A DNA stretch of 64,000 nt. Source: an uncultured Chlamydiae bacterium (GTDB taxonomy: Bacteria > Chlamydiota > Chlamydiia > Chlamydiales > JAJFMB01). Shown here piece after piece: positions 52,074 to 53,844 of this stretch; the stretch's first letter is position 1, and the number at the start of each line of letters is the position of its first letter. The notes beneath the pieces are model-generated. The model was not told the DNA's origin. It searched no databases and saw only the letters and a list, made by a program, of their open reading frames with translations. Location: contig OY969110.1 of the NCBI GenBank assembly GCA_963697995.1, positions 359,404 to 423,403 of the forward strand, written 5' to 3'. The translations under genes were made by a program, and so were the position numbers.

Positions 52074-52583
52074 ATGGGATTTTTTATAGGGGTCGCCTCT
52101 GCGCTGATCACGATAGTCACAAAAATTTGTCGAATATTTGAGATCATCATAAAAGGGCTTATTAATATTTTGGGTTCAATTTTTTCAAAAAAGTGTTCAT
52201 TTTTAAGGGGAATAAAATATTTGACTTGGAACTTAGGAAAGTCATTGATTGAATTACCCTTCTCGGTACTGAACGCGGTATTTGGTATTTTTGAGAAAAC
52301 TCGAGAAATTGCAGCGAATCCAAATCGGTACGCCACTACAAAAATCTTAAGTCATCAAGTCCAACTTGAAACTCTCAAAGCTCTTAATGCCGCTGGTGGC
52401 TGGACTGGTTTTTTTACAAACATAATGAACAACCCAGAAGCGGTAAACACAAAAATGGATGGTTTTATCTCTTCAATTGTGTCATTTGCTGAACAACATA
52501 AAAATAAAAGCAACGAAGAACTCATTCAAGCTATAAACGATTTTCTAAAGAAGATGGGAATAAACTTGGATTTAAAAGTCTAA
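52074..52583 (+). CDS. Small membrane-associated hypothetical protein; its 3' half is the template of the downstream tandem repeat
   Basis: 169-aa ORF with a hydrophobic N-terminus MGFFIGVASALITIV. The last ~250 nt have diverged copies in each 413-bp repeat unit, and the last 49 nt are identical to the repeat-unit start. Confidence 0.55.
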   Translation: MGFFIGVASALITIVTKICRIFEIIIKGLINILGSIFSKKCSFLRGIKYLTWNLGKSLIELPFSVLNAVFGIFEKTREIAANPNRYATTKILSHQVQLETLKALNAAGGWTGFFTNIMNNPEAVNTKMDGFISSIVSFAEQHKNKSNEELIQAINDFLKKMGINLDLKV

Positions 52584-53844
52584 AACTTTTTTTGGCAAAA
52601 AAAAAGCACTGAACGCAACTACAAAAATCCTAAATCATCAAGCCACTAGCTCCTCTTAATCCCGCTGGTGGCTGGACTGTTTTTTTTGCAAACACATTGA
52701 ACAACCCGGACGAAGTAAAACAAAATTAGATGATTTTATCTCTTCAATTGAGTCATTTGCTGAAAAAAATAAAAGCGACGAGGAAATCAATAGTACAACG
52801 TTTATTTTTAATTCTTTTTCCCCATCTTGCAACCTTTGTAAAACAGGCCTACATAACTTATGTATGTCGTGTTTTACAGTTTTGCAACCTGAGAAAAATC
52901 CTTTAAAAATACTATCTAAAACTTTCTTTAGAGATTACTAGTGCTGCAAACGATTTTCTAAAGAAGATGGGAATAAACTTGGATTTAAAAGTCTAAAACT
53001 TTTTTTGGCAAAAAAAAAGCACTGAACGCAACTACAAAAATCCTAAATCATCAAGCCACTAGCTCCTCTTAATCCCGCTGGTGGCTGGACTGTTTTTTTT
53101 GCAAACACATTGAACAACCCGGACGAAGTAAAACAAAATTAGATGATTTTATCTCTTCAATTGAGTCATTTGCTGAAAAAAATAAAAGCGACGAGGAAAT
53201 CAATAGTACAACGTTTATTTTTAATTCTTTTTCCCCATCTTGCAACCTTTGTAAAACAGGCCTACATAACTTATGTATGTCGTGTTTTACAGTTTTGCAA
53301 CCTGAGAAAAATCCTTTAAAAATACTATCTAAAACTTTCTTTAGAGATTACTAGTGCTGCAAACGATTTTCTAAAGAAGATGGGAATAAACTTGGATTTA
53401 AAAGTCTAAAACTTTTTTTGGCAAAAAAAAAGCACTGAACGCAACTACAAAAATCCTAAATCATCAAGCCACTAGCTCCTCTTAATCCCGCTGGTGGCTG
53501 GACTGTTTTTTTTGCAAACACATTGAACAACCCGGACGAAGTAAAACAAAATTAGATGATTTTATCTCTTCAATTGAGTCATTTGCTGAAAAAAATAAAA
53601 GCGACGAGGAAATCAATAGTACAACGTTTATTTTTAATTCTTTTTCCCCATCTTGCAACCTTTGTAAAACAGGCCTACATAACTTATGTATGTCGTGTTT
53701 TACAGTTTTGCAACCTGAGAAAAATCCTTTAAAAATACTATCTAAAACTTTCTTTAGAGATTACTAGTGCTGCAAACGATTTTCTAAAGAAGATGGGAAT
53801 AAACTTGGATTTAAAAGTCTAAAACTTTTTTTGGCAAAAAAAAA
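52535..53844 (+). repeat. Perfect 413-bp tandem repeat, ~3.2 copies
   Basis: GATTTTCTAAAGAAGATGGG recurs at 52539, 52952, 53365 and 53778, a period of 413. The copies look identical by eye over their full length. Each unit holds a degraded copy of gene 52074-52583 (~nt 52330-52583) plus ~150 bp carrying TTGCAACCT-t-TGTAAAACA-(24 nt including ACATAAcTTATGT)-TGTTTTACA-gtt-TTGCAACCT. Confidence 0.9.

What the first reader, a model, noticed from the sequence alone, without database searches (positions are those of the whole stretch)
52535..53844. Perfect 413-bp x 3.2 tandem array between a small membrane-protein gene and the rRNA terminator
The period is exactly 413 bp, with marker GATTTTCTAAAGAAGATGGG at 52539, 52952, 53365 and 53778. 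I could find no mismatch between copies, which implies very recent amplification or ongoing homogenisation.

Each unit has three parts.
- The last 49 nt of gene 52074-52583 and its stop.
- A strongly diverged, stop-ridden copy of the 3' half of that gene.
- A ~150-bp module with a symmetric arrangement: direct repeat TTGCAACCT, inverted repeat TGTAAAACA/TGTTTTACA enclosing the palindrome ACATAAcTTATGT, then direct repeat TTGCAACCT.

This records two duplication ages, one old and diverged and one new and identical. The DR-IR-DR module looks like a protein-binding or recombination site, or a small structured RNA. There are no spacers, so it is not a CRISPR array. Its position directly against the rRNA operon terminator is unusual.
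Basis: seen in the sequence. Interest (0 to 1): 0.6.

Follow-up and report, generated by a model that had tools for sequence, protein, structure and literature searches.

The report
Recent tandem amplification of gene debris
A 413-bp stretch made of the tail of a decaying gene, an old broken copy of that gene and a hairpin-forming spacer is repeated three times without a single difference next to the ribosomal RNA operon of a chlamydia-like bacterium; it looks like an ordinary, very recent recombination accident rather than a new functional element.

Summary
Window 52535-53844 is a 413-bp x 3.17 tandem array with no mismatch between copies.

Each unit has three parts:
- Y, 71 nt: the last 49 nt of ORF 52074-52583 including its stop, plus 22 nt ending in A9.
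- X', about 200 nt: an old copy of the gene's 3' half. It is 88.8% identical at aligned sites, has 10 indel events, and its substitutions fall evenly over codon positions.
- M, about 141 nt: mostly one long imperfect palindrome.

The array ends on a fourth Y. Its A9 is the U-tract of the minus-strand rRNA terminator.

The neighbourhood is decaying. glgC carries two frameshifts, and the array's own gene, a lineage-specific member of a membrane-protein family, is frameshifted at its 5' end.

The unit has no Rfam match and no open frame (413 mod 3 = 2). I found no other copy in the window or in the genome, metagenome, viral, plasmid or phage collections. The closest relative contig loses synteny just upstream and has no array.

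Best reading: a structure Y-X'-M-Y already existed, and unequal homologous recombination between the 71-bp Y repeats amplified it recently. This leaves both the gene's stop and the rRNA terminator intact, so it is probably neutral. Copy number cannot be verified without reads. The kind is known and the interest is low.

The parts
51997..52583 (+). Lineage-specific member of a membrane-protein family with a conserved N-terminal domain and a variable C-terminus. The intact ORF is 52074-52583 (169 aa). The first ~17 codons, from ATG 51997, lie in another frame (1-nt deletion near 52048-52050; in-frame TAG at 52047).
   Evidence: ORF list. 123 family representatives match residues 2-100 at their positions ~40-135. 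tblastn hits extend upstream of the ATG. A reconstructed 196-aa N-terminus scores better against 115 of 117 family members. No Pfam family.
52535..52605 (+). Y, copy 1: the last 49 nt of the gene including stop TAA 52581-52583, plus 22 nt ending in T7GGCA9. This is the 71-nt direct repeat that bounds the amplified unit. Further perfect copies are at 52948-53018, 53361-53431 and 53774-53844.
   Evidence: (family D2).
52606..52806 (+). X', copy 1: 7 nt of junction filler (GCACTGA) followed by an old, decayed copy of gene positions 52330-52539. It needs at least 2 frameshifts to be read. Identical copies start at 53019 and 53432.
   Evidence: Alignment gives 166 matches, 21 mismatches and 10 gap events. 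Substitutions fall 7/6/8 over codon positions. Three-frame translation.
52807..52947 (.). M, copy 1: an AT-rich module. Positions 52803-52911 form one long imperfect palindrome, with core inverted repeat 52837-52878 and TTGCAACCT at 52827 and 52882. A 36-nt tail follows. Identical copies start at 53220 and 53633.
   Evidence: RNA fold: dG -33.4 kcal/mol, z -5.18 on the + strand; -36.3 kcal/mol, z -3.85 on the - strand.. Similarity to the gene is not above shuffles.
52535..53844 (.). The whole array: three full 413-bp units (52535-52947, 52948-53360, 53361-53773) and a terminal 71-nt Y (53774-53844).
53844..53867 (-). Intrinsic terminator hairpin of the minus-strand rRNA operon. Its T-run is the complement of the array's last A9 (53836-53844).
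   Evidence: Terminator scan: 10-bp stem, 5 G-C pairs, tail TTTTTTTTGC. Sequence.
53878..53992 (-). 5S rRNA, the last gene of the 16S-23S-5S operon (16S 57389-58932, 23S 54086-57037). There is no tRNA in the spacer.
   Evidence: Rfam gathering-threshold hits. ARAGORN found none.

Best explanation
This is a real but functionless structural variant: a very recent tandem amplification of pseudogene debris at the 3' end of a decaying, lineage-specific gene.

Shown steps:
1. An old tandem duplication copied the gene's last ~280 bp, up to the A9 in front of the rRNA terminator. That copy (X') then decayed neutrally.
2. The structure Y-X'-M-Y existed before the amplification. The array is 3 x 413 + 71 bp and ends on a Y, so a 71-bp perfect direct repeat flanked the 342-bp X'-M segment.

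Inferred steps:
3. Unequal homologous recombination between sister chromosomes, or slipped realignment at the fork, paired the Y repeats out of register. This raised the copy number from 1.17 to 3.17. Further exchanges between 413-bp units keep the copies identical and should make copy number variable.
4. The event is tolerated because every register of the array rebuilds the same gene 3' end and stop on the left and the same A9-hairpin terminator on the right. Neither flanking function changes with copy number.

M is most likely a passenger: a palindromic spacer, or a remnant of an inserted palindromic element. I do not think it is the reason for the amplification.
For: - Copies are perfect, head-to-tail and in register, and the terminal partial copy equals exactly the 71-nt Y.
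- Y is identical in all four copies, while the adjoining X/X' are only 88.8% identical with 10 indel events. P(0 differences in 71 nt at that divergence) = 2e-4.
- Substitutions between X and X' fall 7/6/8 over codon positions, with 7 synonymous and 14 non-synonymous. That fits decay without selection.
- No reading frame is open across the unit, and 413 mod 3 = 2.
- The neighbourhood is decaying. glgC has two frameshifts that are not in long homopolymers. The array's own gene is frameshifted at its 5' end.
- The only relative found, L026 (phosphoketolase 83% identical), is syntenic up to the middle of glgC. It then diverges, with no rRNA operon, no family gene and no array.
- The unit has no Rfam family and no promoter-like or terminator-like call.
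- It has no copy elsewhere in the window or in the searched collections.
- Unequal crossing-over between direct repeats at the borders of the unit is the standard route to bacterial tandem arrays, and RecA is needed to go beyond two copies (PMC12892994, read).
- GC skew is negative across the whole window. There is therefore no replication origin or terminus here that would suggest another role.
Against: - The copy number rests on the assembly alone, because I have no reads.
- The perfect identity of Y beside an 11%-diverged X' needs an extra step, either gene conversion or a separate younger duplication of Y. I infer this step and have not shown it.
- M folds much better than shuffled sequence (z -5.2). 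Its origin is unexplained, so a function for M is not excluded.
- The source genome itself could not be searched. It is absent from, or masked in, the collections, since even the window's own copies were not found. Other genomic copies of M therefore remain possible.
Confidence: 0.62

Rival explanations
1. The copy number is an assembly artefact. The genome really holds one X'-M segment between two Y repeats (1.17 units), or some other number, and the assembler or polisher produced three identical units.
For: - Absolute identity over 1.3 kb is what consensus polishing of a mis-resolved repeat would also give.
- Nothing in the sequence alone can fix the copy number.
- No second assembly of this organism could be found.
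Against: - The contig is a 2,051,574-bp chromosome-scale sequence. That usually implies long reads or finishing, and such reads easily span 1.3 kb.
- Assemblers tend to collapse tandem repeats rather than expand them (my own knowledge, not tested here).
- ORFs of 2520, 1211 and 812 aa are intact in the window, so the assembly is not riddled with errors.
- Four distinct junctions exist in the sequence: X-Y, Y-X', M-Y and Y-terminator. These force at least Y-X'-M-Y to be real.
Confidence: 0.17
2. M is a functional element whose dosage matters, and the array is maintained for it. Candidates are a small structured RNA, a stabiliser or terminator for the upstream gene's mRNA, a barrier to antisense read-through from the rRNA operon, or a protein-binding cruciform.
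For: - The fold is strong and extended on both strands (dG -33.4 and -36.3 kcal/mol; z -5.2 and -3.9).
- The palindrome is built of blocks, with five paired segments separated by internal loops.
- It sits between a gene's stop and a very strongly transcribed convergent operon.
Against: - No Rfam match at E<=10.
- No promoter-like site in the array, and no G+C-rich stem with a T-run.
- No second locus with the module in the window or in any collection searched.
- It is absent from the closest relative contig.
- The amplified unit is bounded by the Y repeats, not by M, and it carries 200 bp of dead gene copy along with it.
Confidence: 0.08
3. M is a miniature mobile palindromic element, of the MITE, REP or Rickettsia-palindromic-element type. 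It inserted into the old gene copy between X' (…ACAACG) and Y (AAACG|ATTTTC…). The array then formed around it. Hairpin-induced fork stalling at M may have triggered the slippage.
For: - X' homology to the gene stops at …AACG, exactly where Y homology resumes after M at …AAACG. This looks like an insertion with a 4-nt duplication.
- M is about 110 nt of imperfect palindrome.
- The same window holds other dispersed non-coding repeats of similar size: E1 in three copies and E2 in two. This genome therefore does carry such elements.
Against: - The palindrome is off-centre within M. A 36-nt non-palindromic tail precedes the right AACG, so the ends are not terminal inverted repeats.
- There is no second copy of M anywhere I could search.
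- M is not similar to E1 or E2 above shuffle level.
Confidence: 0.13

Closest known systems
Bacterial tandem duplication-amplification by unequal crossing-over between flanking direct repeats (as reviewed in PMC12892994; also PMC1428787, PMC9946442)
   Same: Head-to-tail identical units. The unit is bounded by a pre-existing direct repeat (the 71-nt Y). The array ends with one extra copy of that repeat. The expected result is an unstable, copy-number-variable array.
   Different: The unit is tiny: 413 bp, against kilobases in the classical cases. The bounding repeat is only 71 nt, rather than an IS element or an rRNA operon. No selectable gene lies inside the unit, so there is no sign of selection for dosage.
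Non-coding minisatellite or VNTR-type tandem repeats of bacterial genomes
   Same: Tandem, intergenic and probably polymorphic in copy number.
   Different: The period of 413 bp is far above typical VNTR periods. The unit is visibly a composite of gene tail, pseudogene fragment and palindrome, not a simple motif.
Palindromic dispersed elements (REP, MITE or Correia elements, Rickettsia palindromic elements)
   Same: M is a ~110-nt imperfect palindrome. It lies where homology between the gene and its old copy is interrupted, flanked by AACG on both sides.
   Different: No dispersed copies were found. There are no terminal inverted repeats at the ends of the interruption. Its only multiplicity comes from the tandem array itself.
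CRISPR array
   Same: Regularly spaced identical repeats that contain a palindrome.
   Different: The 'spacers' are all identical and the period is 413 bp. The whole unit is repeated rather than a 23-55-bp repeat. No cas genes were seen in the ORFs I examined around it.

Membership tests
Tandem amplification by unequal homologous recombination | Head-to-tail copies of one unit in the same orientation and register | tested here: met
   Period 413, 3.17 copies, 100% identity.
Tandem amplification by unequal homologous recombination | A direct repeat present at both borders of the unit, so that the array carries n units plus one extra repeat | tested here: met
   Array length = 3 x 413 + 71. The 71-nt Y is present four times and is the last element before unique sequence.
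Tandem amplification by unequal homologous recombination | Copy number varies between cells or isolates, and formation depends on RecA | not testable with these tools
   No reads and no second assembly.
CRISPR array | Short (23-55 bp) repeats separated by unique spacers of similar length | tested here: not met
   All inter-repeat sequences are identical and the period is 413 bp.
MITE / REP / RPE-type palindromic mobile element (for module M) | Multiple dispersed copies in the genome | tested here: inconclusive
   No other copy in the 64-kb window or in any collection. However, the rest of the 2.05-Mb source genome was not available.
MITE / REP / RPE-type palindromic mobile element (for module M) | Terminal inverted repeats at the ends of the inserted segment, flanked by a target-site duplication | tested here: not met
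   AACG occurs on both sides. But the palindrome spans 52803-52911 and a 36-nt non-palindromic tail follows, so the two ends of M are not inverted copies of each other.
Known structured RNA family (Rfam 15) | Covariance-model match at or near the gathering score | tested here: not met
   There is no gathering-level hit in the array. At E<=10, the best hits inside the array reach only 18-23 bits, against gathering cut-offs of 40-94.
Intrinsic terminator (for M or Y) | G+C-rich stem followed by a T-run | tested here: not met
   The only terminator-like site in 51800-54100 is the rRNA terminator at 53867-53844 on the minus strand.
In-frame protein tandem repeat | Period divisible by 3 and an open frame through the units | tested here: not met
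   413 mod 3 = 2, and stops occur in all three frames.
Chromosome dimer resolution site (dif), considered because of the ACATAA-n-TTATGT core | A single site at the replication terminus, where GC skew changes sign | tested here: not met
   GC skew is negative in almost every 2-kb bin of the window, with no switch near 52-54 kb. Three copies are present. The two halves are 1 nt apart, not the 6-8-nt spacer of dif (the dif spacer length is from my own knowledge).

The most novel reading that the evidence does not exclude
M is a previously undescribed, lineage-specific structured element: an RNA, or a cruciform-forming protein-binding site. Under this reading its triplication next to the rRNA operon is maintained. 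It might buffer the convergent collision between rRNA read-through and the upstream gene, or titrate a factor. The perfect identity of the copies would then reflect ongoing homogenisation under selection rather than a recent accident.
Probability: 0.06. Interest if true: 0.5.

Novelty: new member of a known kind. Interest (0 to 1): 0.18.

Why it matters
The value is mainly practical:
- The locus is a likely copy-number-variable marker for strain typing of this chlamydia-like organism.
- It tests the assembly's handling of repeats.
- It is a small, cleanly readable record of how an obligate intracellular genome erodes. It shows repeated tandem duplication of a gene's 3' end against a fixed boundary (the rRNA terminator), neutral decay of the older copy, and a fresh amplification.

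It does not open a new question unless M turns out to be expressed or dispersed in the genome.

Tried and rejected
1. M as a diverged direct or inverted copy of the gene tail Y. The local alignment scores of 25 and 20 lie within the shuffle distribution (mean 20.9, sd 2.5, max 31). I rejected this as unproven. The 15-nt TCTAAAACTTTCTTT match (D5) is collinear with Y but not significant.

2. M as coding sequence. In the last frame of X', the sequence stays open for 47 codons across M and gives a C-x2-C-x7-C-x2-C string. The peptide has no match in the family, the frame is out of register with Y, and X' upstream is broken.

3. C-terminal domain homology. The only hits are marginal, to LRR and coiled-coil repeat proteins P0112 and P0117. 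I judged them spurious.

4. Finding the source genome or other strains. Exact-protein look-ups failed for three window proteins and for the annotated phosphoketolase P0124. The module pattern gave 0 hits in genome contigs, metagenome contigs and viral contigs. A conserved X/X' 30-mer gave 0 hits in metagenome contigs.

5. A glgC-based scan of genome contigs returned only distant relatives, at most 47% identical.

6. blastn of the unit against plasmids and phages found no match.

Rhabdochlamydia was considered, but the published sizes of 1.49-1.93 Mb do not fit. The 16S sequence and the tRNA-free spacer only support 'Chlamydiae-like', from my own reading of the sequence.

8. Similarity of M to the window's other dispersed repeats E1 and E2 is not above shuffles. 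Only a 26-nt stretch at the Y/X' junction resembles E1 (score 30 against shuffles 18.3 +/- 2.2, max 27). This is unexplained.

Full report
**Observation.** Tandem Repeats Finder reports a single array at 52535-53844 with period 413, 3.2 copies, 100% matches and no indels. A direct string comparison confirms that units 2 and 3 and the final 71 nt are identical to unit 1. The marker 20-mer sits at the four stated positions, against none expected by chance.

**Context.** The array lies between a plus-strand ORF (52074-52583, 169 aa) and the 3' end of a minus-strand rRNA operon.
- The operon is 16S 57389-58932, 23S 54086-57037 and 5S 53878-53992. There is no tRNA in the spacer.
- Together with the 16S sequence, this looks Chlamydiae-like. 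That assignment is my own reading and was not database-tested.
- The only terminator-like site in the region is the rRNA terminator, a 10-bp stem at 53867-53844 on the minus strand followed by a T-run.
- That T-run is the complement of the array's last nine bases. The array therefore ends exactly where the terminator hairpin begins.
- GC skew is negative over essentially the whole window. The rRNA operon is thus co-oriented with replication, and no origin or terminus lies here.

**Anatomy of the unit.** I divide it into three parts.
- Y (71 nt, 52535-52605) is the last 49 nt of the ORF, stop included, plus 22 nt ending in T7GGCA9.
- X' (52606-52806) is 7 nt of junction filler followed by a copy of gene positions 52330-52539.
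  - The alignment has 166 matches, 21 mismatches and 10 gap events, which is 88.8% identity at aligned sites.
  - It needs at least two frameshifts to be read.
  - The 21 substitutions fall 7/6/8 over codon positions, with 7 synonymous and 14 non-synonymous. That is the pattern of decay without selection.
  - TTGCAA is its own reverse complement, so in the predicted fold the two 'direct repeats' pair with each other.
  - Positions 52803-52911 form one long imperfect hairpin of five paired blocks. The fold gives dG -33.4 kcal/mol and z -5.2 on the plus strand, and -36.3 kcal/mol and z -3.9 on the minus strand.

**The gene and its neighbourhood.**
- The 169-aa product is the only member of its 90% cluster, on a 2,051,574-bp contig.
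- An exhaustive HMMER search finds 123 representatives of a family. They share its N-terminal hydrophobic domain, at their residues ~40-135, and have unrelated C-termini, some with Sel1 or TPR repeats.
- The duplicated part of the gene is the variable, family-unique C-terminal half.
- Family members align upstream of the annotated ATG. Joining the frame that starts at ATG 51997 to the ORF with a one-base correction near 52048-52050 improves the alignment to 115 of 117 members. The gene is therefore frameshifted at its 5' end.
- Immediately upstream, glgC is split into three ORFs by two frameshifts that are not in long homopolymers.
- ORFs of 2520, 1211 and 812 aa elsewhere in the window are intact. 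These frameshifts therefore look like real pseudogenisation rather than a generally error-ridden assembly.
- The only relative I could retrieve is an ENA metagenome contig whose phosphoketolase is 83% identical. It is collinear with window ~40-50.6 kb and diverges inside glgC. It has no rRNA operon, no family gene and no array.
- The array thus sits in a lineage-specific, decaying stretch next to a synteny breakpoint.

**How it arose.**
- The array is 3 x 413 + 71 bp long and ends on a Y. A simple n-fold duplication of a single-copy segment would give n x 413 bp, so the extra 71 bp means Y was already present on both sides of X'-M.
- The sequence also contains four distinct junctions: X-Y, Y-X', M-Y and Y-terminator. 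Whatever the true copy number, the minimal structure Y-X'-M-Y must exist.
- This is the classical substrate for unequal crossing-over between sister chromosomes. Such exchange is described as the main route to tandem arrays in bacteria, and RecA is required to go beyond two copies (PMC12892994).
- I infer, but cannot show, that this is what raised the copy number to three.
- The four Y copies are identical, while the adjacent X/X' differ by 11%. The chance of that at equal age is 2e-4. Y was therefore either homogenised by gene conversion or duplicated again later.
- The locus thus records at least three events at the same spot.
- Zero differences over about 900 site-branches puts the last event at well under one thirtieth of the age of the old one. 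This is my estimate.
- The amplification changes neither flanking function. Every register restores the same ORF end and stop on the left and the same A9-hairpin on the right. That explains why it can persist without any benefit.

**Tests for a function.**
- No frame is open through the unit, and 413 is not divisible by 3.
- Rfam gives nothing at gathering level. At E<=10, the hits inside the array score only 18-23 bits, far below their gathering cut-offs.
- No promoter-like or terminator-like site is called inside the array.
- The module's motifs occur nowhere else in the 64 kb.
- A pattern keeping the TTGCAACCT repeat and both arms of the inverted repeat, with a free loop, found nothing in the genome, metagenome or viral collections.
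- blastn of the unit found nothing in plasmids or phages.
- Caveat: the source genome itself is evidently not searchable, because its own copies were not returned. Dispersed copies of M elsewhere in the 2.05 Mb cannot be excluded. With no homologue, covariation cannot be assessed.

**Origin of M.**
- X' homology ends at ...ACAACG and Y homology resumes at ...AAACG, which looks like an insertion with a 4-nt duplication.
- However, the palindrome is off-centre and the ends of M are not inverted repeats.
- M does not resemble the gene tail above shuffle level, nor the window's other dispersed repeats.
- A stop-free frame across M yields a CxxC...CxxC string. It has no homologue and is out of frame with Y.
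- I leave M as a palindromic passenger of unknown origin. A mobile-element remnant is the best secondary guess.

**Verdict.** The suggestion of a binding site, recombination site or small RNA has no support beyond a good fold. The array is best filed as a new instance of a known process, namely tandem amplification between short direct repeats in a decaying region. The copy number still needs read-level confirmation.

Noticed in passing
window 49856-51159 (minus strand): glgC (glucose-1-phosphate adenylyltransferase) is split into three ORFs by two frameshifts, near 50770 and 50154-50188. Neither is in a long homopolymer, so it is probably a real pseudogene. In the related contig L026 the gene is also incomplete: the N-terminal third is missing, and synteny with the window ends there.
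   Followed up: partly
window 8189-8327 (+), 16052-16189 (-), 37293-37424 (+): A dispersed ~135-bp non-coding repeat (E1), 90-93% identical between copies. The first two copies lie in inverted orientation on either side of the 2520-aa ORF (8323-15885, which has a weak SecA_DEAD-like hit). This arrangement resembles a composite element. E1 shares a 26-nt stretch with the Y/X' junction of the array (score 30 against shuffles 18.3 +/- 2.2), which is unexplained.
   Followed up: partly
window 2798-2990 and 5317-5503: A second dispersed non-coding repeat (E2, ~195 bp, ~93-95% identical) with an internal palindrome (GGCGAATTAACAG...CTGTTAATTCG). It has no Rfam hit at gathering level.
   Followed up: no
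window 48389-48485, inside ORF 48251-48832 (minus): An in-frame 27-bp x 3.6 tandem repeat encoding TTPTDATA-type Thr/Ala/Pro repeats, in a 193-aa protein with no Pfam family. This is a second locus likely to vary in length.
   Followed up: no
window 51997-52583: The 'small membrane-protein gene' belongs to a family of at least 123 representative proteins. They share a conserved N-terminal hydrophobic domain (motif ...GxPFSKxCSF...LPFS...) and have variable C-termini, some with Sel1 or TPR repeats. The family has no Pfam model. The window's copy is frameshifted after about codon 17.
   Followed up: partly
window 44866-47304: A full-length phosphoketolase (XFP) whose nearest database relatives, apart from one 83%-identical metagenome contig, are ~74% identical proteins from Nitrospira, NC10 and Methylomirabilales-type MAGs. 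For a Chlamydiae-like genome this suggests horizontal acquisition.
   Followed up: no
window 59277-62098: Two adjacent paralogous genes of the putative Na+/H+ antiporter family PF07399 (435 and 505 aa) lie directly upstream of the rRNA operon promoter region.
   Followed up: no
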